Source: Octopus sinensis (taxonomy: Eukaryota). Taken from it: a DNA stretch of 64,000 bases. Under the pieces are notes generated by a model. The model saw nothing but the letters and a program-made list of their open reading frames with translations. It made no database searches and was not told where the DNA came from. Position 1 is the first letter of the stretch; each line of letters begins with the position of its first letter. Shown here piece by piece: positions 402 through 57,824 of the stretch. The position numbers and the translations under genes were made by a program. The DNA lies in NCBI RefSeq assembly GCF_006345805.1, contig NW_021834786.1, positions 7,647 to 71,646 of the forward strand, written 5' to 3'.

Positions 402-500
402 TTTTCTTTCTCTCAGACGGAGATAGGAGCGATGTACTGCCTGCTCTGTATCAATTATAGCTTCGCATCCTTATTGAACGTCCGGATAGCGTATAAAGTA
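402..500 (+). CDS. Gene A (SLC18B1-like MFS transporter), internal exon, about TM8
   Basis: Branch-point-like ACTAAC at 368-373, aag| acceptor, |gtgagt donor; 99 nt, phase 0/0. Reads FSFSQTEIGAMYCLLCINYSFASLLNVRIAYKV, resembling the recalled SLC18B1 segment FNL..GYVGL.F....SY..SS.L. Confidence 0.75.
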
Positions 501-4909: not shown

Positions 4910-5257
4910 CACCACCGCTCATATCTCTCTGAGACATTTAGAAATTCAATATTTCTAATTTCGGTGACCAGTGAATAGATTTCACTGAAAATATATATAT
5001 TTGCGAAGCCTTGGCAGGCATCTCAACTAGCAGGACTGGCTACCCTGGACTGATGACGAGCAAAGACTCAGAAACATGCATGTCTCTAGGTGCTAGCTCT
5101 AGCTGGTGATGGTGCTTGCCTCCCCTTCGCAAATATAAGGACACAGGAAACGTGTCCCTGTAATTCCCTTTACGGGACTGTCACGTTATGTTGACAGTAT
5201 ACAACCACTCTATCGCTCATGTCTCTTTCAGACATTTAGAAATTCAATATTTCTAAT
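4910..5257 (+). mobile_element. Hammerhead-containing non-coding retroelement (retrozyme/Penelope-pLTR-like), copy 1
   Basis: Terminal direct repeat ctcat.tctct...gacatttagaaattcaatatttctaat ending at 4959 and 5257 (period 298); ends in (AT)n; homologous to 55695-57771. Confidence 0.75.
5044..5090 (+). ncRNA. Type I hammerhead ribozyme
   Basis: CCUGGA-CUGAUGA-c-GAG caaaga CUC-a-GAAAC-AUGCAU-GUC-UCUAGG: stem I, intact core, palindromic stem III/loop, GUC cleavage triplet; extra C/A at the base of stem II. Confidence 0.75.
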
Positions 5258-8105: not shown

Positions 8106-8201
8106 ATATATTTGGTTGGATATCGTTGGTATTATACTATTTGGGTATTTCTATAATCTGTCATCCGTGATAATATATAAGTTGCTTTGTGAGTATGTTT
8201 G
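8106..8201 (+). CDS. Gene A exon (about TM10)
   Basis: ttgcag| and |gtaagt; 96 nt, phase 2/2, in frame with both neighbours. (K)YIWLDIVGIILFGYFYNLSSVIIYKLLCEYV(C). Confidence 0.85.
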
Positions 8202-11523: not shown

Positions 11524-14500
11524 TGTAGGGTACTGCCCAAAGATCTATGAAAGATGAAATGTAGACAGGAACTTCGCTGCGGGCTAGCTGGCGAAGTTGA
11601 CTTCCGGTTATGCAGGCTTTCTACTAAGCAGGAGTTGACTGGCGGCTATCGCTCTCCTCATGTATTTAACTCAATAAATCTTTCCTTATTACATTGTGGG
11701 TCTTATCTAATTTTTTTTGTGTATAGCTTAAATAAAGCTATAACTGGTGACCCCTCGAAAGAACAACAGCTTTTGCTTCGCACATCGAAGTCAATAGAAA
11801 ATCAAAGAAACATAGCAAGAGATCACACAACTGTACTGAAGCTACCACAGTTCTGGTTGAAGAGATCTGAGCTATGGTTTGTGCAGGCTGAAGTGCAACT
11901 TAACGTACGCAATAAAACTCCAAACCTAACAAAATATTCGTGTGTAGTAGCGGCACTAGGTGAAGACACGGCCACGAAGGTGCTGGACATTTTAACACAA
12001 CCCCCAGCAACGCACAAATACACTACGTTAAAAGACAGCCTGATGGATACATTCCGTTGGAGCGAACGGGAAGCGGCATCAAGATACTAAAGGAAGAATT
12101 AGGCGATTCCATACCTTCGGAGTTGATAGACATGATGTTGGCATTAGTTCCCCCTGATGAATCACTTTCCTTTTTATTTTGGGAAATATTCCTAGGCAAG
12201 TTACCACTCTAGATCCAGACCCTCATAACTCAGACCGAGATCAAGGACTTGCGGCAGTTTGTGAAAGCAGCCAACAAACATTTTTTTATCTAGTAGTGTT
12301 ATAGTCAACGCAATTGGGTCTGTCCTGAGACATGGTAGAGTTAAACAAGACGACCTGTGCTTCCACCACACAAAGTTCGGCAAAAAGTCTACGAAATGCA
12401 AACAACCATGTTGCTTCAGGACTCCTTGGCCATCGGCCCCAGGAAAATCCAGGGCCGACCGCCACTGAATACCCTGGTGGCCGGCAGACATGATCACCTG
12501 CTCCTCTATGTCTGAGATCGGACCTTCGGACGTAGGTTCTTAATCGACACAGGAGCAGAAGTCAGCTTGATCCCTTCGTCGGCAAGAGACCTCCGTTACT
12601 GAAAGCAACAGTCAACCTTTAACGGCCGTCAGTGGCCCCACAATCGAGGCGTTCGGTTGCCGCATCAATTCTCTCAACATCGACTCACAAAATACACATG
12701 GGCATTCACCATCGCCGATGTCCATCAGCCCATTATCGGGGCAGACTTTCTTCGAGCATACTTGCAACTGGTTGATTTGCAGGGGAGACGACTCATCAAC
12801 AACAACACATATGCCTCCGTGTCTCTGGCAACATCTGCACATGCTGCCTCCCGCATAGCAACGGTCTCTCAGACCTAGAATGAATTCTCGAGTCTCCTTT
12901 CGAGTCGCCCCACGCCGACATTCTCCAAACTTACAACCTGCTATGGAGTAACACACCACATCCCCATCACTGGCCCTCCAGTATACAGCCATGAACGTCC
13001 TCTACCACTAGACGAATTGCTATTGCAAAGGCTGAGTTTGGTAATATAGAGGCGTTGGGCATAGTTCGTCGATCAAGCAGTCCCTGGTCGTCACCCCTTC
13101 ATGTGGCACCAAAACCCAATCGAGGTTTGCAACCTTGCGGAGATTACTGGTATCTCAATGCAAATCCTTTTTAGCACGTACAGGACTTCTCAGCCCAGTT
13201 AGCCAGGTGCTCGGTTTTCTCGAAGGCCGATTTATTCCGTGGTTACCAGTACAAGACGATGATGTACCGTAAGTCGCAGTAACCACTCGTTACGGGCAGT
13301 ATGATTTTCTACGTACACCCTTTGCTCTGAAAAACGTGGTACAATCCTTCCAACGCTTTATGGACACCACGTGCAGGGTCTTGACTTTGACTTTGCATAT
13401 TTAGATGATATCCTTATCGCAAGCCAAAATGCGAAGCTACACAAGAAGCGCCGAGTTACTGTTTTTGATAGACTTTGACAGTATGGTCTAGTAATCAACC
13501 CCGCCAAGTGAGTTTTTGGTGTTACAGAAATTGACTTCCTGGAACACTGAATCACAGGCGCTGGTTCTACGTCCTTGCCAGAAAAAGGAAAGCTATCATA
13601 TCCATTTCACGCTCCTCCACAAGCAAAGCTGTACACCAATTTCTGGCCATGGTAAACTTTTACCATGCCTCATCCCTTCTGCAGCAAGAGGAATGAGATC
13701 CTATACAAGGCACTGTCAAAAGATGGTTCGAAAAGATAGGTGGAGTGGGATGGTGCAATGACCCCAGCCTTCAAATTCACTAAACAAGCTCTGGCTAAAG
13801 CAATCATGCTGTCCCATCCACATATGTCATGTTTGACTACACTCACAGTCAATACCTCCGACACATCCACTGGGGGCATTTTGGTCAGTGGCGACCACTT
13901 GCCTTCTTCAGTCAACAACTACGACCTGCTGGCTGTCTATCTAGGTGTCTGCCACTTTTGCTATTTTCTTGAAGACCGTAGGTTTGCAGTGTTCACGTTG
14001 CAACCCGACAGATGACGATAGTAGGACCTACCGCACTGCTATCGCGTCACTTTCCTTGCAGGATGTGCATTTGGCTCCAGTGGCATAATCCTGCTGTGTC
14101 ATGTAACCACTGGGAAGCTACGATTGATCGTCCCATCAGCCTGGCGCAAGAAAGTTTTCGACGTCATTCATGGACTGTACCATCCGGGTAATAGAGCCAC
14201 ACGGCACCTGCTGTCGAGCAAATTTATCTGGCACGGTATGGCCAAACAAACTGGGGAGTGGACCAAGACCTGCATCCACTGTCGATAAGCCAATGTTCAT
14301 TAGCACACTAAAGCACCTCTCGGTAACTATGAATCACCAAAGACCCGATTTAGCTACGTTAGCATTGACCTTGTCGGCCGCAACATGGAAACACAAGAAG
14401 TCAGCCGAGCCTTCATCACAAACTGAGTTGCCCCTTTCGGTGTCCCAGACAGCATTTTATCCGATCGGGGTCCACAATTCACCCCAAAGCTGTTGAATGA

Positions 14501-15398
14501 CATGTGCGATCTTTTTGGAATCACAATGAAGCGTATAACAGCCTACCATCCACAGGCCAACGGGTTAGTGGAGAGATTTCATTGCCGCCTGAAGGAATCC
14601 CTGACAACCAGACTTAACGGGTCCATTTGGCTTGATCAACTTCCATGGGTGATGCTGGGAAATCGCACCGCCCCAAAGGAAAATCTCAACACTTCTTCCG
14701 CGGAAATGGTGTATAGTGCCCCTCTTACAGTGTTAGGAGAGTTCCTTCCGAACCTGAAATCAGACCCGGATGTCAAAAGATACCTCGCGCAACAGAGAGA
14801 GTGTGGGCCAGTTGCGCCCTATTCTCATGTTGCACCTAGATCATCCGTATCAAACGACCTCTGCACAGATAACTTCGTGTTCGTTCGACGTGAAAACCTC
14901 TCCAGTCACCTTACGATGACCCATTGAAAATCATATGTTCAGGAGACAGATCATTCCAAATCTTAGTTGGCGGACAACAAGGCGCAGCTTCGATCGAAAT
15001 GTTGAAGACGGCCCATCTTGATAATGATAGCTCCGTCCAAGTAGCTCGACCACCAAACAGGAGCCGCCCCAAGCAAATCACACCAACCCTCGACAAGGAA
15101 CAATCACCAAAGAGCCGTGTAACCACACACATGGGCAGGGCAGTTAAAACGCCTTCTCGGTTCCAATGACAGACAACAGTTCTGGAGAGCGGGGAGCTAT
15201 ATGTAGGCCCAAGAATTTAACACATGGAATGTAGACAGGAACTTCGCTGCGGGCTAGCTAGGGAGATGGTCTGCGGCTAATTTGACATCCGGTTAAGCGG
15301 ACTTTCTGCTAAGCAGGAGTTGACTGGCGGCTATCGCTCTCATGTATTTAACTGAATAAATCTGGGTCTCCGTTAATATTTTTGCGTATGGCTATACA
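11524..15398 (+). mobile_element. Ty3/gypsy (Mag-like) LTR retrotransposon, full span, pseudogenised
   Basis: LTRs 11524-11743 and 15202-15398; PBS TGGTGACCCC at 11745 (tRNA-Trp type); PPT ~15184-15196. Gag LKLPQFW..LWFVQAE, protease FLIDTGAEVS, RT YLDD, RNase H, integrase YHPQANGLVERFH; many stops and frameshifts. Confidence 0.93.
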
Positions 15399-18817: not shown

Positions 18818-18911
18818 ACATCTCACTGGATTTATAATTGCTGGACCTATTTTAGATATATTTGGCTATAGATGGAGTCTTACCCACATAGCATTTCTTA
18901 TATTATTAACT
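18818..18911 (+). CDS. Gene A exon (about TM11-12)
   Basis: tttttcgcag| and |gtaagt; 94 nt, phase 2/0. (G)HLTGFIIAGPILDIFGYRWSLTHIAFLILLT, comparable with GG.LYE.IGFEW. Confidence 0.88.
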
Positions 18912-25859: not shown

Positions 25860-27000
25860 GAGAATTCTCAAAGCTGCAAGTCGAGATGCTGATCAGAAAG
25901 GGGGAATATTGTAAGTGACTTTAGAAAGGGGAATATCGTAAGTAAATTTAGGCCCATAACTCTGCTAAACTCAAACTTAAAGATTTTGGCCACGGTGCTA
26001 GCAAAGACGTTGGCGCGGATCGTGGAAGGCCTTGTTGGGGAAGCTCAGACTTGCGCTAACTCAGGCAGGTCGATACCTGACAATCTTCACCTCATACGCT
26101 ACTCCTTAGAGAGGGTGGGTAAAATCTCTGGCAAAGGTGGGGCACTGGTACATTTAGACCAGTCTAAAGCATTTGATAGGATCGACCATCGGTACCTGGC
26201 CGCGGTTCTCGGGGCTGCCGGGCTAGGCCTGACTTTCTGTGGCTGAATCGCTGCTTTGTACAGTAACGTCGAGTCTATCGTTCAATACTGAGCGCCCAGT
26301 TCGCCAGCGAGGTATGTCCCCTGATTCCACTTTTGTATATGCTGGTCCTTGAGCAATTACTGCAAAGGATGGAGGCGGTAGGGTGCGTTTCGCATGATCT
26401 ATGGGGCGGAAGAGCAGCTACCGCGTACGCGGATGACACACCATCATCGTGTACGATGAAGGGCAGCTACCTAGTGTAGAAAATGCTATCAAAAGATACG
26501 AAACGGTGGCAGAAGCAGTAATTAAGCAGGTCAAGTCAGTCGAACTGAAACTCAGCACCTGCAGGGGAAAGTCGATGCTGCCCAATTACGTCGTGGGATG
26601 TTAGACGGAAGGTCCGATTAAGGGTTGTGGTTCGGTCCAGAACTACAGATAGAGAAGAATTGGAGCGAGGTTACAGGCAGGGTAACTGTACCGACCTGGA
26701 CTTGGTCTAGAAGGGCGTTATCTCTGCTAGGAAAGGTGGAGGTGGCGCAGATGCTTATAGCTTCTGTTATCACCTACCTCCTGACTCTTGTGCCTTGTCC
26801 CGATTTGTGACTGAAGAGGCAGGAACGACTCCTATTCCACTTTTTGTGGAAGAGAAGAGGAGCACTTGTAAGGCGTTCTGTCTGCTACTAAAACCTTTAA
26901 AGGGTGGCCTAGAGATGTCGTGGTTGAGGATGCGCATGTTCGCGCTAAGGCTTAAGCACCTCTGGCTCTACCTGGATGGTGAGCAGGTGTGGGTCACCGC
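25860..27000 (+). mobile_element. Tx1/L1-clade LINE RT fragment
   Basis: FRPITLLNSNLKILATVLA..GRSIPDNLHLIR..LDQSKAFDRIDH; YADD at ~26426; W.RRALSLLGK. Confidence 0.88.
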
Positions 27001-29891: not shown

Positions 29892-31304
29892 TCTATATAT
29901 ATAAAACTGTAGTTGTGTGAGTGTCTGTCCCCTTCGATTTAGATTCCTAACTCCTCCCACATTTTGCGGTGCAGTTTAACCAAATTCGGGTATCTTATAG
30001 TCGTGATTAATATCGAGCCCGTCTGGCTATTAGCGCGCGTCTACGATGAGTCTACGATTTTAAAAATAATTTAACATCATTTTTTATTCCATTTTAATGC
30101 ATAATTTTTCGTGTGTCGATGGCGGCGGAGTTGGCGTCCACGCTCAAACACCTGCCCTGTGTTTGCTTCTCCCCCTTCTTCCCTCCCTCGTGAAGCTGTG
30201 GGGAAGGGAGTGTATGGAAATCAACGTCGTAAAGCGTTGTCAAGGAGACCAGCGTTCTTTTAGAACAACGACTTCATGGCTTGAAGACACCAAAACAGAA
30301 ATGGCTAAGAAAGCCCGAATTGGCATCTATAAGGGAAGTAACTCTCTAAAAATGCTTATATAGTTATTTCCCTTACAAACCCGAGCAACGCCGGGCGATA
30401 CTGCTAGTCTATATATATAAAAGTGAAGTTGTGTGAGTGTCTGTCTCCTACGATTTAGATTCCTAACTACTCCCACATTTTGCGGTGCAGTTTAACCAAA
30501 TTCGGGTATCTTATAGTCGTGATTCATATCGAGCCCGTCTGGGTATTAGCGCGCGTCTACGATGAGTCTACGATTTTAAAAATAATTTAACATCATTTTT
30601 TTCTATTTCTTCCAATTTTTTCGTGTGTCGATGGCGGCGGAGTTGGCGTCCATGCTCACACCTGCACCTGTGTTGTTTCTCCCCCTTCCACCCTCTCGTA
30701 AAGTGTGACTGCGCATGCGCGAACGTGTCGCGCATGCACAGTCACACGTTCGCGCATGCGCAGTCACACTTTCGCGCATGCGCAGTCACGTTCGCGCATG
30801 CGCAAGCAAAATTTCGAACAATCGCAGTCACACTTTCGCGCATGCGCAGTCAAACTTTCACGCATGCGCAGTCACACTTTCACGACCGAATGTTTTAGTT
30901 GTTGCACAAATCTTTATATATAAAAGTGAAGTTGTGTGTCTGTCTCCTACGATTTAGATTCCTAACTACTCCCACATTTTGCGGTGCAGTTTAACCAAAA
31001 CCGGGTATCTTATAGTCGTGATTCATATCGAGCCCTTCTGGGTATTAGCGCGCGTCTACGATGAGTCTACGATTTTAAAAATAATTTACCATCATTTTTT
31101 TCCATTTTAATGCATTTTTTTGCTATTATATAAGGGAAGTAACTCTCTAAAAATGTCTACGATGAGTCAACGATTTAAAAAAATTTACTATAATTTTTTT
31201 TCCATTTTAATGCATTTTTTTCCTATTTTTTGGCTATAACTCTCTAAAAATGCTTTTTAGTTATTTCCCTTACAAACCCGAGCAACGCCGGGCGATACTG
31301 CCAG
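29892..31304 (+). mobile_element. Head-to-tail array of three non-autonomous Helitron units
   Basis: Each unit starts TC (29892, 30408, 30911). The 3' hairpin CCCGAGCAACGCCGGG is followed by CTAG (30407) or CCAG (31304). Inserted at A|T with no TSD; removal restores gypsy MFNCQKRSKPKNEKIMRWRIEL. Confidence 0.92.
30701..30883. repeat. ~22 bp tandem array built on the GCGCATGCGC palindrome
   Basis: Repeated ttcgcgcatgcgcagtcacac, with the first unit inverted. Confidence 0.9.
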
Positions 31305-34109
31305 TTAAACATAAAGCCACACTGTTTTGATCAGTTATTAGTGTGAAGTTACGTCCAAGAAGAAAATGAGACCATTTTCTCACAGATTCTACAATCGCTG
31401 TCGCCTCTTTTTCAATACAAGAATAACGACACTCATTTGGGTTGTGGGTTCTTGAAAAACATGCATCTGGCTTTCCGTTTGGGTGTAAAATGCCAGATAT
31501 AGCTACCTCCGATGCATCTGTTTCTATTGAGAAAGGAAGGCTTTCATCAATCACTTTTAAAGTAGCGTTTGCTAAATCATCTCGTAAAGTTTTTAAACTT
31601 GACTAGGCTAGTTCACTCAAAGGAAAATATTTAGTATCAACCAACAGTTTTTATCATGTCAGAGAATTTGGGAATCCATTTAGAATAATACGCAAATAGA
31701 CCAACAATTCGACTCAATGCTTTGTGGGTACTAGGAATAGGTAGTTCTAGTAAGGATTTTACCCGGTCAGGGTCAGGTTTTAAGTTACCATTTTGAATTT
31801 CATAGCCAAGCAATCGAATCCGCGTAGTGCTGTAAATGCATTTGGTATCATTAAAAGTTAAATTACAGTCCTTAGCAACTTGAAGAAAATGTTTTAACTT
31901 TCGATCATGTTCTTCCTTCGATTACCACACACAGTTATGTTGTCGATATATGCAAAAGTAGCTCTACAATTATGGCTTTCGATTATATTATCGATCACTC
32001 TACATTTGTAAGTCCGAAAGCAATACGTTTGCGTTGATATAATTTTCCCTGCGCTTTGAAAGCCGTATAATGTCAATCTTCAACTGGAATCTCAACTTGA
32101 TGATACGCATTTGAGATCTAGTGTGCTAAAATAATTTACCTGAGCTATTTTTGTGACCATGTCATGCATATTTGGCAGTGGATATCCATCTAATTGCGTA
32201 AACTTATTTATAGTCTCACTATAATCAATACACAGTCTCTTGCGATGATTTTCTCTCGATATTACCAATACCTGGGCTCGCCAGGGAGAAACACTCGGTT
32301 CAATTACCTCTTCTACCAGATCTCGGCTTAAAGTATCAGCAATAATTTTTTCATTATTGGCGGACTGTCTTCTCGATTTCGTAACTATGGGTTTACAGTC
32401 AGTGTTTAAATTTTCAAACAACCTACGTGTAATGTTACTTTTAATGCTCTTTAAAGCTCCCAAATGTAACGGGGGCATATCGCCGTCTATGATATTTGTA
32501 CATGTTGATGCTGTTTTAAGAAATGTTGTCTTAAAATTATATCTACAAACAAATTACTAAGTACCACTAGATTTACTTGCTCGTAAATTCTTCCGTGAAG
32601 TTCAATTGAACTCATACAATAACCGTTGCTTTGGGAACGATTTCCATTGACAGCCATGTTAATTTCATTCCTTTCAGACTTCACCACCAATTTGTTTTTC
32701 TTTGCAAAGTCTTTGCTAATATGATTCATAGTAGAGCCGGTATCAATCAAAGCAAATGCTTTCACGCCATCGACTGTTATTGTATAATTAACTTTAGTAG
32801 TAACTCCAACTTGACATAAAGCCACGGCGAAGTTGCCATCATCAAGAGCTGCTGATGTCTTATCGAAATTTTTACGGTTACTTGACCGGCATTCTTTAGC
32901 AAAATGACAAAAAATCTACATTTGTAACACTTGCTCCGCCTAGCAGGACATTTAAACCTCGGATGAAATTCATTAGATCCGCAAAAGGTACAGGATTTTT
33001 GAGTTCGTTTTGTCGCTGTACAAGGTGTGTTTCCGTCAGGAATTGAGATTTTGTCTTCTTCACGTGGAATAAACGTTGACAAACAGCTTCCCTGGCTGTT
33101 TATAGCAGACTGACTGCTATTATACACTTCGGAATTCCTTTGAGCAACTTCCAGCGGACGGGCTTGGTTAAATATCGCTTCTAAAGTTATCGCCGCATCT
33201 TGAATATTTTCTAAAAGTCTAAGGCGAGTTAAAGATGACGTTAATCCCGAGATAAATGCGTCACGAACAGCTTCATTTTTGTGAGTCTCAGCGTCTACAG
33301 CTCTGTACCCGCAATCTTTAGCTAGTCGTTTCAATTTCTGTAAATAGTCGTCAACTGATTGACCTGGTTCTTGTTTGCATGTCATTAAAAGGTATCTCGC
33401 AAAAATAATGTTCAATGGTTTCACGTACATTCTCTCCAGAGTTTCAATTGCTTCTGAGTAATTCTCACATTCACATATGAGTTCGTAAGTGTCTTTATCT
33501 ATGTGCGCTATTAAACACTTAAGTTTGCTTTCATCCGTGATAGGCGGTTCAGCAGGGCATGATACTAAAAATGTTTTTTAAGTTGTGAACCAATATTTCC
33601 ATTCTTTCGAAGCTTGACTCGAACTTGGATTAGCGGTGAACAAATTTGGTTTTATAAATTTGCTGTACATTTTCTCTCGCTCTCTCTCTCTAGCTATATA
33701 TAGTCGCTTAAATTGCTATAAACCCAAACTCGAATATCGAAATACAATAAAAACTCGAATAATAATATACAATACAAACAAAGATTGCTAAATTGTAAGC
33801 AAAACCAAACTTCAACGCAATAACATTTTTATGCAGCGAGTTGCTACATTCTAGACTAAAATCAACGCAGAACACGTCGTGCTGCAAACAGAACAGAACT
33901 CCGCGCAGTCGCACTGCAGGCATATAACAGCAATCGAGACAATCAAAATCACGTGATCAAAACTAAAATCACAAGTATTGACTTGCTCTTAAATAAAATT
34001 CAATTTATACTGACAACATTAAACACGATTAACTATAGGCTGTTTCTAAATTCCAGATCTTGTGCTTCTATTATTATTATTATTATTGATGTTGTTGTTG
34101 TTATTTATA

Positions 34110-46524: not shown

Positions 46525-46598
46525 GTCTATCATTTTGAATTAAAACGTATCATATATGTTGCAATCGGGTTTTCTGCCATTAACACAATTTTTTTTGG
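46525..46598 (+). CDS. Gene B exon, about TM3
   Basis: tctcttacag| and |gtaagt; 74 nt, phase 0/2. VYHFELKRIIYVAIGFSAINTIFF(G), comparable with ..GGVTILFG. Confidence 0.88.
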
Positions 46599-47681
46599 GT
46601 AAGTGAGATTTGTTCAGAATTTTTCATATTGTCGTATTGTATGTTATTTTTTCGTACTTTGTAAAGTTACTTATGAGATTGATACTGAATGAAATAAAAT
46701 ACTGGCAAATCCTGTATGAATGCTTTATTGGGTCAAGTTTGGTGTATGATTTGCATCATGATTTCATCTGTCATATCTATAATATTGTTTTAAAGGCTCA
46801 TTTTCAGGTTCATATACTTGGCTAACTTATGAATCTACTCTGAAAAGCCATTGTGTCTAAGAAGCTGCTGATTGTGTTTCTTTGTAGACATACTATCATT
46901 ACAATTATTAAGATTTCAGAGTTAGCTGAGCTGTATCTAATTAATCTCTTTATGTTCTAAGTTCAAGTCCAACCAAGATCAACGACTGCCATTGATCTTT
47001 TACAGCTTGATGACATAGATACCAGTTAAGCAAGTTGATTAAGTAAATATGTGGCCTTGTGTCAATGTTATATGTTATAATTATTATTAGTATCATTATT
47101 ACGAAGAACAGTGGATTGATAGGATCAGTGGTGTATCAGACAGCATCTTATGTGGTATTTGGCTATCTATCTTTTACATTGAGCTCAGATCTACCAAGAA
47201 TCTGAAGAATCTGTTGGGGGGGGGGGGGGCACATCGACAAGTAATCAAAATAAGTAAAAAAAAAAAAATAACGCAATGCATCTATTACAAGGAAAAGCGA
47301 AATTTCTAACGTTTTGGCCACAGGCTCTTTATCAAGCCAAAAAGAAGAGAAAAGGCAAGGAGTCTTGATAATAATGGACGATGGAAGGAAGATATGTATT
47401 TAGTTTTTTAGGATGGTGGGCAGAAATTTCGGACAGGTGCTAAAGGTTTAGTAAACAGCGACAGAGTCAGTGCATGTCTTAGCATGAGTGAGTAAGTATG
47501 GGTAGGACGGTCAAGTACTATGAATGCATGTATGCTTGTATGCACCAGGAGTGATTAAATGATTGTGATGAAAGGAGACGAGGAAAAATTAGAGAAAATA
47601 TAAACAGTTATTGACACTAAAAGATGTACGCAATCAAAAATAATGTCAATGTTCCTGAAGCTGCAAAGCAGAAAGGGAGTC

Positions 47682-48077
47682 CAGGACCGGATTTAAACTG
47701 GGGTGGGGAGCACTTCAAGTTCAGTGGGTCACTTATACCCAAGACTTATAATCTCAGAAAATTACTAAATTTAAATCTCAAAACCCATCTATTTCCAATA
47801 ATTAAATTTGATGAGTTACCAGAGAAAGTTTAAATAAATGACTGAAAATGTCCCTTTATAGATATACTTTTTCAAAATTCAAATTTCGTTTTTCACGCAT
47901 CCACTTGCGGTATTTGATTTTTCCTTCATTGTGAAAAGTACAATGAAGGCGAGAAGAGTGAGGTAAGAGTTTTTTTTTCTTTTGATGTGAGTTACATATA
48001 TTTCAGAATGTAAAATAAGATAAAATTACAGATTATGAAGAAAAAAATCATTTTTGTGGTTGTTGCTGTTCCAAAGG

Positions 48078-48118
<41 letters not shown>

Positions 48119-48731
48119 CAAATACGGGGAAGTTCAAACAGCTATTTCTGAAAGTCAACTTTTCCACTTTCCAGAGTAAGTGGGGCACAATGAGTAATAT
48201 TTAGCATACAGCCATTTTTAGATATTGGAAATGCGACAAAATCTAAAATCTCAACGATAAATGTTTTTTATAGCTACTTCACCATAGCTTTTTGCCAGAA
48301 AGTATTCAGATATTTTATTAGCTACCTCAATTACAATTGGGTCAAATTTGAGGAAAAATTTCTTTTTTCTGACGCAAACATACATACATTTTCAGGATTG
48401 TTCTGTTTCCCTTTTCTCAGCTGTCCCCAAAGCAGCTACAATTTCCCTGGGAATCATGCTTTGGGACTGGCAATAAATTGTTTTTTAATTGAATTATTTG
48501 GTATCTCTAAAGGACCAAAAATCTATGGGTATTTATCATAAAAGAGAATTCATTACATTTAAGAAATCAAGATACCTTTGTATAACGAGTGTGACTCAGC
48601 AAGCCTGATTGCTGGAAGGTGGTGGTGAGGGGCTTCCTGTATTGAGTGCCACATACCTTTCCTAGCAGGGGTCCCCAATATCTAGATACCCGGAGCAATT
48701 GCCTCACCATACCCCGAAAAATCTGGCCCTA
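47682..48731. mobile_element. hAT-like non-autonomous element
   Basis: CAGGACCGGATTT ... AAATCTGGCCCTA termini; flanks agggagtc / agggtgcc resemble a decayed 8 bp TSD. Confidence 0.5.
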
Positions 48732-48972
48732 GGGTGCCACTGGGTAAACTAAAAAGCAGAAAGAGCTTAAATCCAAAACAATTTTTCTTTTCCTCATGAC
48801 AAAAATATAATCATTTTTATTTTTATTACTATTTCATTTGCTTTTATTGTTTTCTTACTGACAAAATATATATTTGAGTTTCCTGTTATCGACTGTTCTC
48901 ACTATGAAAATGGGCAACCTTGCACTGTTGGTAGAAACCATTATTAATATTTGTATATTTCTCTCTCATCAG

Positions 48973-49132
48973 ATTTCTTGAATACATCCCTAAGCAGGGT
49001 TCTTATAATATGGTGTTCCTCATACTAAGTTTCATTGTGAGAGCTTTCGAATCTTTGAGTTGTGGTACAATCAATACAGCAGTTATGATATTTTATACCA
49101 CTGAATTTCCAGATGATTTCAGTTGTTTATTT
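48973..49132 (+). CDS. Gene B exon, about TM4
   Basis: ctctctcatcag| and |gtgagt; 160 nt, phase 2/0. (G)FLEYIPKQGSYNMVFLILSFIVRAFESLSCGTINTAVMIFYTTEFPDDFSCLF, with the TM4 VR and FP motifs. Confidence 0.9.
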
Positions 49133-51272
49133 GTGAGTATAACTAAACGCATACTTCTTTATCTTCGTCTCATTCCAGTCTAATAGCTTCACAGTGATTA
49201 CAGAGAATATTCATGTCACCAACGTTGTATCTTTCGACCATACGTTTTCGGTTTTTTTGACGTTCTCGTTCATTTTTATTTTATATTCTATCTTGAACTC
49301 GTTCCCTTATTTCTTGTAAATACTCACTCAATACTCTTTGATTCATATTTTCCCTTCAACACACTGATGCTCCCGTGCTTGTTTTAGTGATTCGAACCTC
49401 TGTTTCTCTTTATATACCGTTTTAATCTTTCTGTTGTCATCCATATTTTATAAACAAATACATATTTTCAAGCAAGCAGACAGTAAATATATGAGGAGAG
49501 GCGATATAAAAAAATAAAAAAAGACTGCACATTTCGCTAACCACTCACCACCATCATCATCATCACCACAATGATCATCACCATCACCTCCACCACCATC
49601 ATTATAGCTTTCAATAACAAAGCTCAATCTAAGTTGTTTGCCATCCACGATAGTTTCATTTTATTTCAGTTCTTTGTTTATATCTACTCCTCTTTAAAGA
49701 ACAAAAAGCGACAAAAGAAAAGAAACGAAAAATAACATCTACGCTTATTTTGCTAAGTTATTTCACTTTCATTGAAAAAATCTATTTTTCTATGATAAGG
49801 TTATTATTATTATTCCTTTTTCAGTCCACCCAACGATGTAATAAGTCACAATAATATATGATGTTTAAAATTTTCCTTTTAACATTTTATCTCTCTCTCT
49901 CTCTCTCTCTCTCCAGCTCTCTTTTTTTTCTCCCTCTACCTCAAATTTTAACAAACATTCTAACCATGTTATTCCCCTCTTCACGTCTTTATGATTTCTC
50001 TCATTCTCTTTCTCTTAATTTTCATCTCTCATTTGCACTGACCACCTGACAGCTTAATGCATCGGCTGGCAAAACACCTCTACTCTTTCTCCCTTACACT
50101 CTCCACTTTCTCTCTCCCTCTTTGTCTTTCTTTAACTGCACCACTAGAACCTCATTCTGCTAAAATTTGTGTTACTAACTCTCTTTCTCTACATCACTAC
50201 CTTCAGAAAGCATTTTAACCCCGCAATAAATGTTACGTTTCTCCTACTTCGCATCATGAACACTTCTTTCTCCCCCTTTTTCTTTCTCGCTCTACTCCTT
50301 TTTCTTCAACTAATCACGTGACAGCGTAACGCATTTTGTCCTTAGCGTATTAATATATAGATATTTCAAATTACGGCCCCATACAGAAAAAAGCGAATTG
50401 GTTGCATTTCGGGAGCTGATTTACATATCTATCACTTGCCAGGCTATTATGTTATTCATTACATCAAATAGATTAGGCCATCATAAAGATTATGTCAAAA
50501 TGACCAATTAGCACTTTATAATATCTCTTCATAACATATGTAAATCATAGACAATTTTATAACCACTCAAACACCATCGGATATATACGAGCGCAGACAC
50601 ACACTCGCTTATAAAGTTTGAGTTGGGATGTAGTATGTGTTTCATATTCCAGAAATTATGTGTAGATATAGGTTTGTGTATAAATAAACGACGATAATAG
50701 TGACTTGAACGTTACAGTAAGTTAGGAAACAGCCAGAAATATTTTATTGGCAATGCAAGCTCCAAGCAAATGGGGTCCAGTCTGGAATAGAAGTAATGGA
50801 ACACTAGCTTGAAAATTTACAAGCCAATGATCCGTTACCTAAGTGGATCAATGCTTAAGAGAATAAAAGATGCTAGTCTGAATCACAATGGAACGCCAGC
50901 CATGGATTTGGTCCTATGATCCTTGTGCAGGTTGTCAAATACATTATGTTCTATACATATTATTGTAAGACTAAATATCTTTCCCCTATATAAAATTTAT
51001 TCATTGTTTTGTCAATTTACCGCCATTTTAAAGAACTGAAATTTTAAGGAATATCGCAATTATAGTACAGATACATTTTAGGGAATAATGCATTTGAGAT
51101 TATATCATTCTTTACGGAATGAGACAATTGAGAGATTGTGTAAGTTTTGAGAATGTTACATGTAAGTAAAGATATTTACTTTTAAGAAAATATTTCAAAA
51201 CATAATTTTCTTACAAAAACAGATTAGTATCTTCTGAAGTTCCACAGCTATTGTGTTTAAACGTTATTTCAG

Positions 51273-51341
51273 GGTTTGTTTATGGCTGTAACTGGGCTTG
51301 GTTACTCAACTAGCCCCCTATTTGGAGGAATACTTTATGAT
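51273..51341 (+). CDS. Gene B exon, about TM5 (MFS motif C region)
   Basis: ttatttcag| and |gtaagt; 69 nt, phase 0/0. GLFMAVTGLGYSTSPLFGGILYD, comparable with GLGLILGPPVGGFLYQ. Confidence 0.9.
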
Positions 51342-52369
51342 GTAAGTATGATTACATAATTATCTCTATTGAATTTTTGCTGCGAGAGAATGAAAACATA
51401 TGAGATGTGTCGGGTAACTAGCTGACGTTTAGCTGCAGTTAAACAAATGTATGGTCAACGATGTTCCAGAGAGAACCGTTTTCAGATTTAGCGTACGCAG
51501 GACAGTATTACCCAACGTATATTTTGTTTTTATGAAAGCAGGGTAAAATTTGAGGGAGAAGGCAGCTATTTCTTGCATGCCGACAGACCATGTAGAAGTC
51601 GCCTCACTTATGTTCTGTCACAAGCATTGCACTGAGTTTGTGATCAAGTTACTTCAATTTCAACATCTGAGCCATCTGAATTCATTTAAGAGGCTCTTCA
51701 AGAAACATAGTTCACAGCTGTAAACATTATCATTATTTTAATGAGGCTTGCAGTTGAGGTTAATTCTTCACGTGAGAATAGTTACCTGAAATAATCTAGT
51801 CGTATCCAGTAATTCTTTTTTTACTTTTTATCTCTTTATCACTAAAGTAAGTGGAATTAAAGATCGTAATTATTGACCTTTGTGTCAGGGAAAGATTATA
51901 CACTGTGTGAAAAATATAGACTCCACCCCAAAACTGGATTTATACACCATAAAGATGGCTACATACAATAATAAACATGGAATAGGAATATATATTCTTT
52001 AATTGCCAATAAATTAAATTATGACACATCTAATCGGCAAAATGTAAAGTCTATGATACAAATGGTGTTTCAATTTCACAGTCAAGTAATATTACTTGAA
52101 ATTAAGTGAAATTTTCAGAAATATAAATGGATATAACTATTTACAAGAAGCGTTGATGGAGTGTATATACAGTTTTGTGTGTGTACATGCAAATGAATCA
52201 TCAAATGTAAACGAAAGCGCGTTCATGTATGTGTGTATACCAATAAATGTATGGCTATAGAAATTTTTAGTACACGTATATAAAGAGTATATACATGTGT
52301 TACAATCCAGTTAATAGGTACTTTCAATGGATTCAAGGTGAAAAAATAATCTTCTCTATTAAAACTTTG

Positions 52370-52547
52370 AGGTGGGGGTAAGTCAATTACATCGACCCCA
52401 GTTCTCAGCTGGTACTTATTTTATCCACTCCGAAAGGATGGAAAACAAAGTTGAACTCGGCAAAAATTGAACTCAGAACATAAAGACGAAGGAAATGCTG
52501 CAAAGCATTTTGCCCTGTCTGCTAACGATTCAGCCAGCCCGCCACCT
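52370..52547 (-). mobile_element. OR-like SINE
   Basis: Reverse-complement match to the 34110-34341 family. Confidence 0.7.
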
Positions 52548-54044
52548 GAAGGTGGAAAAATAATGAAATTTAAGTTCCCGGATCATAGATTGTCTGTACA
52601 GTTCGTTTCAAGCAACAGATCTTGAAAACGTAGTGAATCTGTAAAAGATGTTGGTTTATAATTTGTTGCGCTACTGACTGTCATTGCACAGTTGATACAA
52701 GCCGTTGTATCACAGCTGAACTGTGTCTGCTGCTACAATGGCTGTGGGATATTGTTTGCTGAATGGCTGCTGACACCACTATCAAGGATTAGGTAAGCCA
52801 CTTGATATACCTGACTGAGAGGAATTAATTCAATAATTCGGACATCTACTAAGTCCATGGGCGTGAGTTTACATCAGTAATGCAAATATCTATCACCTTC
52901 TGTTTCCTATATGTATAAATATCCCCTAAATCTGGGCTTAGTGGTTTAACGTTTTTCATGCCTGTTCCTTGACTATGGGTACAAAAGATGACAGATAACT
53001 TTTCTTTGAAAAGGAAGCCGATCTATCTAAGATAATATTTACTATTGATTTCGTAGTATCTAACACATTCGAACGACTAGGTGAACCGAGGCAATAGCGA
53101 TATTTGATCAAGTTATTTTTATTGTTTGCACTCCGGTAAAGATGACTGTCCATCCATAAACATTGCAAGTCGTTTAGAAATGTGCTCTTTCGAAACACTA
53201 GTGTGTTTGATGCAGTTCATGTGAAACTTAAATTTTCTGTTAAATAGTTTGTTGTTTCATAGATTAGACTGTTGCAGAAATAATAGAAGAAACAAAGGGA
53301 TGACACACAGACTAACTTATAGTCTAACTTATCTGAAAATTTGTAATAGAATATTTTTCTTTAGATATGTTAGCTTTTCTCAAAGATTGGGCGCTCAACA
53401 ATTGTACATAATGTTATAACTGTTCAGGTGTGAATTAGTGTCTAGTTCTCAAGATGAAGATGTGAGTCTATTATAGATTTATAGAGTTTATGTGTCGTTT
53501 ATTTCTAGGTGACACATAAGCTCAATAATTTGAACATATGATACATGGGAAGATAACCCAATGCTTATACCTTCGGCCATCTCGTCTGTACCTTGAAAAA
53601 TTAATTTCAGTCTCCCCTTTAGACACAAGACAATTGTTTAAGTACGAAACTGACCATAGTAAATCAAAGAATATTTATTGAAGAGTTGTAATAAGATCAG
53701 ATAATGCAAGATAGATAAAATTGGATAGAATAGGATCTGAGATGGTATGATAAAATACTATACTACGTAATATGTATATTATAAATAAAATAAAAGATAG
53801 GCTATGAAAGAACAAAAACCAAGCATTTACTTAGGCTACTTCAAAAGTCTGTTCCGTTCCATGAATTTATGTTTCTCTGCATATGCAAAAAAAAAATAAT
53901 AATAATAAATCAGATATTTTCGAATATAACGTGTTAAAGAGGAGTCCAAGGACCAAGTTTTTGGAACAATACATAGCTAATAGCAATAAACAATATTAAA
54001 TCGCCACAACAGAGTCAACCATAATTGTATTAAATCTTTTTCAG

Positions 54045-54132
54045 CTTGGCGGATTCGATTTACCTTATCTGATATATGGTACACAGCTTGCCATTTGTTT
54101 ACCATGCGATATATACCTTCTAAGGAGCTCGA
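54045..54132 (+). CDS. Gene B exon, about TM6
   Basis: tctttttcag| and |gtaagt; 88 nt, phase 0/1. LGGFDLPYLIYGTQLAICLPCDIYLLRSS (GGF.LP motif). Later exons were not found in the window. Confidence 0.88.
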
Positions 54133-55430: not shown

Positions 55431-55782
55431 TTAGATGCTGTAGGAAGTTACAGGGACGTAAACACACCAACATCAGTTGTCAAGTGATGGTGAGGGGTAA
55501 ACACAGCCACACAAATCCACTCACAAGGCTATGATCAGCCCGAGGCTATAGTAAAAGATATTTTCATATCATAAGGTCCCACGCATGAGTACTGAACCCC
55601 AATCCATGTGGTTAGGAAGCAGGCTTCTTACCACACAGCCACTTCTGCGCCTAATACGATATATGATATGAAATATGATATGATATGATACAAGTAATAT
55701 TTCTAATTTTGGTGATCAGTGAATAGATTTCACTGAAAATATATATGTTTGCGGAGGCTTGGCAAACATCTCAACTAGCAGG

Positions 55783-57482
55783 TCTTGTGTCGTTCAGACG
55801 TTTTTTTTTAAAGTTCGTGCGGTGAAAACGTTATGCTGTTGTAAAAACGGCGTTACACGTTCGGTTCTCTTGGGAAGTCGGAAAAGTCGCTTTGAGTCAT
55901 AAGGATTACTTGTCTTTATTGTTTTTCACTGGAGAATTTAGTCTGTCTGTGTGAGACAGACGAGGGAAAATGAGTTTTTCCGCATTAAGAGGAAGAATGG
56001 AGGAAACAAGAATGTTCAGCGAGTCGGACATGTCGTCTTCCGAAGAAGAATTGGTGGAAGCGGTAGAAATAATGGACATGATACAACAGAAAAGGACATA
56101 CGCAGGTGCAGCGAAGCCGGTGGAAAAAGAAATAAATCTGGCAAAATTACCGGAATGCCAGGACATATTAAAAAGAGTGAATGGAGAGGTGGAGTTGTTG
56201 CTGCCCAACAGGAAAAAAAGTAAAATGGAAAAAAAGAAAATAATATACAGAGTATTAGCAAACGACAAGAACAGCACAGATATAATAAACATGGAAATGA
56301 TAGAGGAGGCCTTAAGAACAACAGAGGAAGAAATAGTATTCCTCGCAAGAGGAAATAAGTATGCCACAGTGGTGGTGCAGTATATAAATGAGGAAACTGC
56401 GGAAGAATGGCTACAAAGACGATAAAAAATGGGAAAATAATACTTCTACCCACTCATCTGGGGAGAAGAACATGAAGAATTAGGGTGGAGGGAATGCCAC
56501 CGAATATCGAAGCAGAATTAGTAATAGCAGCAGTTATCTGCGGTAATGAAGATAAGGTCGACATAGTCCAAGCGACTATAACAGAAGATAAAGGATGGAT
56601 AGGAGCGACGCTGGAAATGGGCGTCCAGGCAGAAATGGAAACCCTACAAAGTTTGTCGGAGTCGATTACGACAAGTGATATAACGATGAAAGTATGTGTG
56701 GAGGGCAGAGCCCCTCGTTGTTATAGATGTGGTCTGAAAGGCCACATAAGAGCAAACTGCAATACGACAGTGGAACAGATAACCAAGGAAACAGCAATGG
56801 AAACGGTAGCACCCCAGAAGGAAACAGAAGAAAAGGAGAGTCGAGTGAAGGAAGACGGAAAAGAGTGGGAAACCCCAGGAAAAAGAAAACAGCGGAAAAG
56901 AAAAAAGGCAAGTAACTGTGAACCCCAACCCACCCCAGCACCACCCTCACCCACTGTGTCCCACCCCGTCCCTGCACACACTAATTCCACCCACTCCCCA
57001 GCAACAAGAAAATAGAAAACAGACAAACAAACGATAGCACAAAACCCCCACTCTGAAAAATATTGTACAGGTATTATTGACAACAAACATTTATATGAAA
57101 GATTGAAAATATGGGGAAAGATAGAAATGCCAGATGGCTGGCATCAGAAAATGGAAATAGTATTGTCAAAAAATCAGGTTGAGGAACTTGAAAAGGAACT
57201 TGAGGATGAATATATGTTAAAAAGAGGAACACTGGCACCGGAAAAGAGGAATAAACTAGAAGAAATATACGAGGTTGAATTTGTAGACTTTGTGGTTTTC
57301 GCGGTAAAATAGGAATAAAAAGGTAAGTGATGTTGACTGATGGAGCAGTTAACATCACTTTCATCTCTCATTATTTGACCTTTTTTCTCATTTTATCATA
57401 CAATGATTTTTTTATGTTTTATGTTCCCAATGTGTTGTAGTGTCCCCTCTATGTAAGACCTTTTATGGTTAATAAAAAATCA
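55783..57482 (+). mobile_element. ORF1-only non-autonomous non-LTR retroposon (HAL1-like/Tx1-derived)
   Basis: Perfect 12 bp TSD TCAACTAGCAGG (55771-55782, 57483-57494); AATAAA and an A-rich 3' end; zinc-knuckle ORF; no RT or endonuclease. Confidence 0.8.
55970..57015 (+). pseudogene. ORF1/gag-like zinc-knuckle protein with one frameshift and one stop
   Basis: ORFs 55970-56425 and 56485-57015 join via ..ATKTIKNGKIILLPTHLGRRT*RIRVEGMPP; CCHC CYRCGLKGHIRANC; basic KRKQRKRKK tail. Confidence 0.75.
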
Positions 57483-57503
57483 TCAACTAGCAGGACTTGC
57501 TAC

Positions 57504-57548
57504 CCTAGACTGGTGACGAGAAGACTCAGAAACATGCATGTCTCTAGG
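57504..57548 (+). ncRNA. Hammerhead ribozyme, core-mutated copy
   Basis: CCUAGA-CUGGUGA-c-GAG aaga CUC-a-GAAAC-AUGCAU-GUC-UCUAGG; perfect stem I, CUGA changed to CUGG. Confidence 0.65.
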
Positions 57549-57763
57549 TGCAGGCCCTAGCTGGTGGGGGTGCTTGTCTCTCCTTCGCAAATATAAGGAC
57601 ACAGGAAATGTGTCAAAGCCGACAGGAAGCGTGGATGCATCCTAGGGCTAAATAGTGGTGGTGTGTTACCCTTTACGGGACTGTCACGTTAAGTTGACAG
57701 TATACAACCACTCTATCGCTCCACCACCGCTCATATCTCTTTGAGATATTTAGAAATTTAATA

Positions 57764-57824
<61 letters not shown>

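What the first reader, a model, noticed from the sequence alone, without database searches (positions are those of the whole stretch)
4910..5257. Retrozyme-like family: circularly permuted ~300-350 nt non-coding unit carrying a hammerhead
Seen: the hammerhead core caps a long imperfect stem (ATATTTGCGAAG..GGCAGGCATC..CTAG pairing with CTAG..GGTGCTTGCC..CTTCGCAAATAT), with further small hairpins. The unit is terminally redundant, by ~45 nt here and ~13 nt in copy 2. Copy 1 starts with caccaccgctcatatctc, which lies near the end of copy 2. Both copies stop at the same ATATTTCTAAT next to (AT)n. Established: Penelope pLTRs and metazoan non-LTR retrozymes are units of this size range with type I hammerheads, whose palindromic stem III allows dimer cleavage, and retrozymes yield circular RNAs. 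Inference: a cephalopod retrozyme copied from a circular or multimeric RNA and targeted to (AT)n. It is in the sense orientation in introns of both transporter genes.
Basis: partly seen in the sequence, partly recalled or inferred. Interest (0 to 1): 0.8.

Follow-up and report, generated by a model that had tools for sequence, protein, structure and literature searches.

The report
Ribozyme retroelement parasitised by site-specific LINEs
A 353-base non-coding repeat carrying a predicted self-cutting hammerhead RNA is scattered in about a thousand copies or more through this animal genome with the insertion footprint of Penelope-like retrotransposons, which likely copy it, and a group of LINE retrotransposons has repeatedly inserted into it and its sister repeats at one fixed spot just ahead of the ribozyme.

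Summary
Observation confirmed. Window 4910-5257 is one copy of a dispersed, ORF-less family (monomer 353 nt; 904 exact hits of one 20-mer, control 0). It carries a type I hammerhead (core 5050-5084) on a rod whose stems covary across 50 copies. The copies are not random permutations: 69 of 78 sampled arms end at one of two 3' sites about 55 nt apart, 5' ends are scattered, and 12 of 13 inverted pairs use one site per arm. That is the Penelope-like element (PLE) 'tail' footprint. None of five PLE families tested uses the unit as its pLTR, so it reads as a non-autonomous retrozyme moved in trans; a (TA)n-targeting Hydra-type PLE is the best candidate partner. These LINE copies are younger than their host units. 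Window copy 2 carries such an insert. Cleavage, circular RNA and expression are untested; a circular template is about an even bet.

The parts
4910..5257 (+). Copy 1: 348-nt insertion = one monomer with about 55 nt deleted plus about 50 nt terminal redundancy; 3' end at the downstream ('tail') site next to (AT)n
5044..5090 (+). Type I hammerhead motif: stem I 5044-5049 with 5085-5090, core CTGATGA 5050-5056, stem II with a C.A mismatch at its base, GAAA 5071-5074, palindromic stem III, predicted cut after 5084
   Evidence: activity untested
4995..5138 (+). Long imperfect rod capped by the hammerhead
   Evidence: MFE; covariation
5020..5043 (+). Empty LINE target site (ATCTCAACTAGCAGG region; monomer positions about 111-134)
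5208..5257 (+). Approximate 'tail' between the two preferred 3' ends of the family; repeats 4910-4959
55695..55782 (+). Copy 2, 5' half, ending in the duplicated 12-mer (55771-55782)
55783..57482 (+). 1.70-kb ORF1-only non-LTR insert (broken zinc-knuckle frame, AATAAA near its 3' end) at the family's LINE target site
   Evidence: (zf-CCHC E 0.007, below cut-off)
57483..57771 (+). Copy 2, 3' half with mutated core (CTGGTGA), ending at the same TTTCTAAT before (AT)n

Best explanation
This is a non-coding, hammerhead-bearing retroelement of the animal retrozyme kind that is likely copied into new sites by the enzyme of a Penelope-like element, and L1/Tx1-group LINEs insert into it at one fixed site. 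Shown: 353-nt monomer, conserved fold, two fixed 3' ends about 55 nt apart, scattered 5' ends, inverted arm pairs with one end type each, no attached PLE ORF, and repeated LINE insertions with target duplications. Inferred: a PLE protein nicks AT-rich DNA on both strands and starts reverse transcription at two internal sites of the unit RNA, as shown in vitro for the anole element PAc. The template is uncut or re-joined at the ribozyme site and longer than one unit (circle, multimer or template jump). The hammerhead likely cuts multimeric transcripts into monomers that can circularise, possibly as a dimer through the palindrome. The (TA)n-targeting Hydra-type PLE in the same genome is the likeliest helper. 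The LINEs likely use the unit as a multicopy safe haven and sometimes ride along when LINE-plus-unit RNA is copied by the PLE machinery.
For: Copy number: 904 exact 20-mer hits and 135 exact core hits, controls 0. Ends: 35 + 34 of 78 arms at two sites; 12 of 13 inverted pairs have one of each; 46 of 78 arms have an inverted unit segment upstream. Craig et al. describe a tail on only one end of inverted PLE insertions; Frangieh et al. tie the tail to two RT start sites. Structure: 18 of 71 pairs change on both sides, 0 of 500 shuffles reach the paired fraction or covariation score, slid controls fall to 27-44% paired; 5 of 6 stem I pairs covary. Core intact in 35 of 50 copies. In sister family U2 the core pair 3-8 is C-G in 18, U-A in 6, broken in 1 of 25 parsed copies (5 of 30 not parsed); U3-A8 is a described natural covariation. 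No PLE attachment: 150 loci of five PLE families. Candidate helper: CxCx5C linker (Hydra diagnostic); 28 of 28 anchored copies end at one of two sites beside (AT)n. LINE targeting: 20 of 30 best copies of ORF1-only family A run straight into the unit, 25 of 30 counting upstream halves and U2; 14 of 30 ORF2 loci are followed by retrozyme-like units (read by eye); 14-18 bp duplications at 7 of 14 such loci fetched; LINEs 0.24-0.65% apart inside units 2.2-4.3% apart.
Against: No cleavage, circRNA or expression data. Stem II has a C.A mismatch at its base in 31 of 50 copies, which may weaken the ribozyme, and Rfam misses it. No sequence is shared with any PLE tested, so the helper is identified by footprint only; only 34 of 69 unit ends abut (AT)4 against 28 of 28 for the Hydra-type family. 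Copies with two hammerheads are rare (3 of the 30 best loci; 0 of 78 sampled arms long enough), unlike the tandem arrays that define published retrozymes. One dimer (L011) joins two subfamilies, which a single circle cannot give. LINE-plus-unit chimeras copied through the cut site point to uncut linear templates. The shuffle control ignores relatedness among copies. The insert in window copy 2 belongs to a family not generally targeted to the unit (2 of 30, both this locus).
Confidence: 0.8

Rival explanations
1. The unit is the solo pLTR of an autonomous PLE family that I did not sample; copies are 5'-truncated PLE insertions.
For: The end pattern and inverted arms are exactly those of PLEs; PLE pLTRs carry type I hammerheads; Xenopus retrozymes match pLTRs; only five PLE families, 30 loci each, were examined; one unit copy lies 617 nt downstream of a decayed Neptune-like RT.
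Against: Copies that extend beyond one monomer re-enter the monomer rather than an ORF. Upstream flanks of 78 arms share no non-unit sequence other than the LINE; 6 pairwise hits were weak or a common short repeat. The Neptune-like family has its own minimal hammerhead and 28 of 30 loci lack the unit.
Confidence: 0.07
2. It is a PLE-dependent non-autonomous repeat copied from linear, uncut read-through or multimeric RNA; the hammerhead is kept for another reason (RNA processing or folding) and circles are not the intermediate.
For: PAc inserts unprocessed RNA and does not need hammerhead cleavage in vitro. 27 of 78 arms pass through the cut site. LINE-plus-unit chimeras with PLE-type ends exist (L074, L075, L078, L084, L090, L094, L096). 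L011 is a heterodimer.
Against: Lengths above one monomer form a continuum up to 2.1 monomers with no pile-up of 5' ends, and no same-strand hits at monomer spacing appear among the 100 listed places, so long tandem sources were not seen. In L017, L019 and L045 the two repeats are each other's closest match. The fold brings the two cut ends together.
Confidence: 0.4
3. The LINE association is hitchhiking only: a few LINE insertions into master units were amplified as composites, with no site-specific endonuclease.
For: Composite copies with PLE-type ends are real. For several family A pairs the LINE is as diverged as, or more than, the unit.
Against: LINE copies are much closer to each other than their flanking units in three groups. 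5'-truncated LINEs carry their own duplication (L071, L073). Three separate LINE lineages sit in five sister families at a homologous site, with several distinct junctions.
Confidence: 0.08

Closest known systems
Metazoan non-LTR retrozymes (Cervera and de la Pena 2020, PMC7229834; passages, section 14 and Discussion read; supplement not readable)
   Same: Non-coding 170-400 nt unit, type I hammerhead, GC about 45%, highly self-paired fold; mussel units are 350-390 bp; a mismatch at the base of stem II is described for axolotl; PLEs proposed as helpers.
   Different: Here copies are mostly dispersed, 5'-truncated, under 1.5 monomers, often with inverted arms, not tandem arrays; circRNA not shown; PLE end footprint and LINE targeting not seen in the parts read.
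PLE-related retrozymes of vertebrates (Li, Clavereau and Pollet 2026, bioRxiv 10.64898/2026.07.22.740005; parts 1-3 of 5 read)
   Same: [quoted passage not shown]
   Different: Evidence there is co-occurrence and pLTR sequence similarity in Xenopus; no mollusc among the groups named. Here the link is the insertion footprint, with no pLTR similarity found.
Penelope-like elements: PAc (Frangieh et al. 2024, PMC11167929; passages) and Hydra clade (Craig et al. 2021, bioRxiv 10.1101/2021.04.23.441226; passages)
   Same: Two RT start sites giving a tail, AT-rich targets, partial tandems, inverted 5'-truncated arm with the tail on one end.
   Different: No ORF; tail about 55 nt rather than 30-40; hammerhead has a full stem I on a long rod rather than the minimal PLE form.
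Target-specific Tx1-clade LINEs (Kojima 2015, PMC4494074; passages)
   Same: Two-ORF LINEs inserting into a multicopy target, including other transposons (Tx1D, Mariner-N4, LTR and Harbinger elements), U2 genes and microsatellites.
   Different: The target here is a hammerhead retrozyme superfamily; no such target appears in the passages read or in the listings of searches. Repbase could not be checked.

Membership tests
Non-LTR retrozyme | Type I hammerhead with conserved core and paired stems | tested here: met
   Rfam models do not detect it
Non-LTR retrozyme | 150-450 nt non-coding monomer, no LTR/PBS/ORF | tested here: met
   period 343-356 in 24 of 25 copies with an overlap, 329 in one; no unit ORF or attached ORF
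Non-LTR retrozyme | Tandem copies with two or more hammerheads | tested here: inconclusive
   dimers exist (L011, L017, L019; U2 L329; L389) but are rare; no long array seen
Non-LTR retrozyme | Self-cleavage and accumulation as circular RNA | not testable with these tools
   only assembled contigs of runs of uncertain type were available
PLE-mobilised element | Two 3' ends (tail), inverted arm, tail on one end, AT-rich target | tested here: met
   repeated in sister family U2
Solo pLTR of an autonomous PLE | Unit found directly downstream of a PLE RT/GIY-YIG ORF across a family | tested here: not met
   five families, 150 loci; other PLE families not sampled
Tx1-clade LINE (the inserts) | ORF1 with CCHC knuckle; ORF2 with APE endonuclease, RT, zf-RVT; target duplication | tested here: met
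Tx1-clade LINE (the inserts) | RT phylogeny inside Tx1 rather than L1 | not tested
   no named Tx1 reference came from a tool; nearest named hit is a Ciona pol-like protein at 28%; the label Tx1 is recalled from architecture
Target-specific LINE (Kojima's 20% rule) | More than 20% of a family's flanks are one sequence | tested here: met
   family A 20 of 30; the window's own insert family fails, 2 of 30

The most novel reading that the evidence does not exclude
A three-tier parasite system: a superfamily of circular-RNA retrozymes is propagated by Hydra-type PLE enzymes that start at two structure-defined sites, while L1/Tx1 LINE subfamilies have radiated to track each retrozyme family, inserting just upstream of the hammerhead so that the host unit's ribozyme trims their RNA and the PLE route gives them a second way to move.
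Probability: 0.3. Interest if true: 0.82.

Novelty: new variant of a known kind. Interest (0 to 1): 0.62.

Why it matters
How animal retrozymes move has been open since 2020; published support for PLE help, in the papers I read, is co-occurrence and sequence similarity. Here the genome records the PLE two-start footprint on an ORF-less unit and names a candidate helper, so the question can be put straight into the existing in vitro PLE assay. Separately, LINEs that home to ribozyme elements would be a new target class for sequence-specific LINEs and a clear case of a parasite of a parasite: about a quarter of sampled target sites are filled (6 filled places against 16 empty arms). Matched LINE subfamily and target pairs are also natural material for studying how APE endonucleases change specificity.

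Tried and rejected
Rfam Hammerhead models: no usable hit. Repeat finder on the whole window: swamped by microsatellites. Hammerheads spaced about 4 kb on C18, suspected to be a PLE tandem: no PLE ORF, a local duplication. Search for a PLE sharing the unit: five families negative; the few hits were query loci, opposite-strand or unrelated insertions, and one sister dimer behind a truncated PLE. Pile-up of 5' ends at the cut site: 1 of 78 exactly, 2 within positions 170-178. Expression: no RNA holder listed; contigs of three guessed-RNA runs and one unlabelled run were laid on L045, but contigs show neither ends nor level and the flank held another repeat, so nothing is concluded. Host gene identity: Pfam gave no transporter family. 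Earlier scan notes: nothing by sequence, by the long word list or in this genome. The supplement of PMC7229834 could not be read and may list cephalopod retrozymes; bioRxiv supplements are closed.

Full report
Observation. The window holds, at 4910-5257 (+), a 348-nt non-coding unit with a type I hammerhead: stem I (5044-5049 with 5085-5090), CTGATGA, a short stem II, GAAA, a palindromic stem III and a GUC ending at 5084. The + strand folds far better than shuffles (z -9.9). Its first and last 44 nt match at 93%. A second copy spans 55695-57771, is redundant by 13 nt, has a mutated core and is split by a 1.70-kb insertion with a 12-nt duplication. Rfam finds neither copy. The window itself occurs twice in the assembly, so those twin loci were not counted as independent.

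Family. A DNA search of the own genome gave 2335 candidates, 40 scored. Exact patterns gave 135 core hits and 904 hits of a 3' 20-mer, reversed controls 0. The tandem period is 343-356 nt in 24 of 25 copies with an overlap; copy 1 lacks about 55 nt. In an alignment of 50 copies (the window copy plus 49 of 53 that covered the core region) I set a 71-pair structure by hand from the MFE, the RNAalifold result and the hammerhead model. 94% of cells pair, 18 pairs change on both sides, no shuffle of 500 reaches the paired fraction or covariation score, and slid controls give 27-44%. One measure, further pair types, is not above shuffles (373 of 500), and shuffles ignore kinship. The catalytic core is intact in 35 of 50; the base of stem II is C.A in 31 and U-A in 13. 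The palindrome gives a -13.3 kcal/mol duplex against +1.7 for the monomer hairpin, which fits dimer action but does not show it.

Insertion footprint. I sampled 64 loci chosen only by the 20-mer: the first 30 hits, less 6 overlapping loci, plus 40 further regions on C1 and C2, leaving out 3 places already held. Of 78 arms, 35 end near monomer position 50 and 34 near 344-353, about 55 nt apart; 9 end elsewhere, most of them running on to the LINE site. 5' ends are spread. Of 13 inverted pairs 12 have one end of each type. 34 of 69 ends have (AT)4 within 20 nt against 6.6% background. Craig et al. describe this layout for PLEs, with a tail on one end only (passages), and Frangieh et al. show the tail lies between two internal RT start sites on AT-rich targets (passages). 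27 of 78 arms pass through the cut site, 6 exceed one monomer, and the longest copy seen is 747 nt. The template is therefore uncut or re-joined there and can be longer than one unit. A circle explains the continuum of lengths and the lack of visible arrays; a heterodimer (L011) and LINE-plus-unit chimeras point to template switching or linear read-through RNA. I put the circle at about even odds.

Not a solo pLTR. Five PLE proteins found by chance in flanks were each searched, and 30 loci per family read. Loci with any unit hit were 0, 1, 2, 3 and 2 of 30; none shows the unit as a family pLTR. The Poseidon-like and Neptune-like families carry their own minimal hammerheads; these clade names are recalled from motifs. 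One family has the CxCx5C linker that Craig et al. give for Hydra, and 28 of 28 anchored copies (2 of 30 had no anchor) end at one of two sites beside (AT)n. It is the best helper candidate, by footprint only.

Sister families. LINE flanks revealed diverged relatives U2-U5 and a sixth dimer. They align hairpin for hairpin with the unit. U2 has 580 exact hits and again shows two main 3' ends about 50 nt apart, the first just after the same hairpin. Its core pair 3-8 covaries, C-G 18, U-A 6, broken 1, a change described for PLE hammerheads. This is good evidence of selection on the catalytic fold.

LINE targeting. Several unit copies were preceded by the same foreign 3' end. This ORF1-only family A (1.67 kb) runs into the unit at positions 113-140 in 20 of its 30 best copies, the query included; two more have the upstream half and three sit in U2. 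Searching with an ORF2 found upstream of another copy gave 30 loci, 14 followed by retrozyme-like units by my reading; the rest sit in other LINE copies or unrelated sites. Fetched full-length elements are 4.8-5.5 kb with CCHC ORF1 and APE-RT-zf ORF2 and 14-18 bp duplications at 7 of 14 retrozyme-linked loci. Three LINE lineages are involved (midpoint root, so no order of events is claimed). Independence of insertions: four elements differ by 0.24-0.65% while their host units differ by 2.2-4.3%; two other groups give 3.0-3.6 versus 5.6-9.8% and 2.4-2.7 versus 12.6-14.3%; family A gives means of 10% versus 15% with some pairs reversed. Truncated copies with their own duplication occur (L071, L073). 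Seven loci hold a truncated or inverted LINE 3' part plus unit without an upstream half, read as chimeric RNA copied by the PLE route. In the 64-locus sample 6 places are filled and 16 arms empty. The insert in window copy 2 is at the same site, but its family hits the unit in only 2 of 30 copies, both this locus.

Comparison and novelty. The unit works like, and most likely is, a metazoan non-LTR retrozyme (PMC7229834); the tandem-array and circRNA criteria are inconclusive or untestable here. A PLE link has been argued from co-occurrence and pLTR similarity (bioRxiv 10.64898/2026.07.22.740005). A recent Octopus vulgaris repeat annotation has no occurrence of 'retrozyme' or 'ribozyme' in its main text (PMC13282606, term search). 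Tx1 LINEs targeting other transposons are known (PMC4494074). I saw no retrozyme target in the listings of searches, but the library lacks subscription papers and Repbase, and key supplements were unreadable. Verdict: a real retrozyme family, a known kind, with two additions, a clean PLE footprint and a retrozyme-homing LINE radiation. Interest 0.62.

Noticed in passing
window 55783-57482: ORF1-only non-LTR insert; its family (382 candidates) mostly sits elsewhere, often before a TCA(T)C-like motif resembling the retrozyme target.
   Followed up: partly
L131, L226, L227, L230, L233, L389: At least five sister retrozyme families, some with U3-A8, U3.G8 or CCGA core variants; copy numbers known only for U2 (580 exact hits).
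   Followed up: partly
L170, L179, L183, L186: Some LINE copies are followed by what looks like the 5' end of another copy of the same group: tandem or self-targeted insertion.
   Followed up: no
L135-L164, 3' of the endonuclease ORF: The Poseidon-like PLE family carries a tRNA-like segment between its ORF and its minimal hammerhead, read by eye only.
   Followed up: no
L195-L224: Young Hydra-type PLE family with many near-identical copies, strict (AT)n targeting, two ends about 65 nt apart and a CCGAAGA hammerhead-like motif.
   Followed up: partly
window 417-500, 1804-1898, 8106-8201, 18818-18911 and 46525-54132 (+): Two sets of hydrophobic exon candidates, apparently paralogous membrane-protein genes; resemblance to an MFS transporter is recalled, not confirmed by Pfam.
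   Followed up: partly
window 11551-14924 (+), 31273-33577 (-), 61766-63529 (+), 25893-26243 (+): Broken LTR-retrotransposon and RT fragments.
   Followed up: no
whole window: The window contig duplicates two separate stretches of C9 at 100% over the parts searched: probably an unplaced redundant contig.
   Followed up: no
L045:900-1260: An unidentified multicopy repeat beside the unit, heavily covered in all four runs laid.
   Followed up: no
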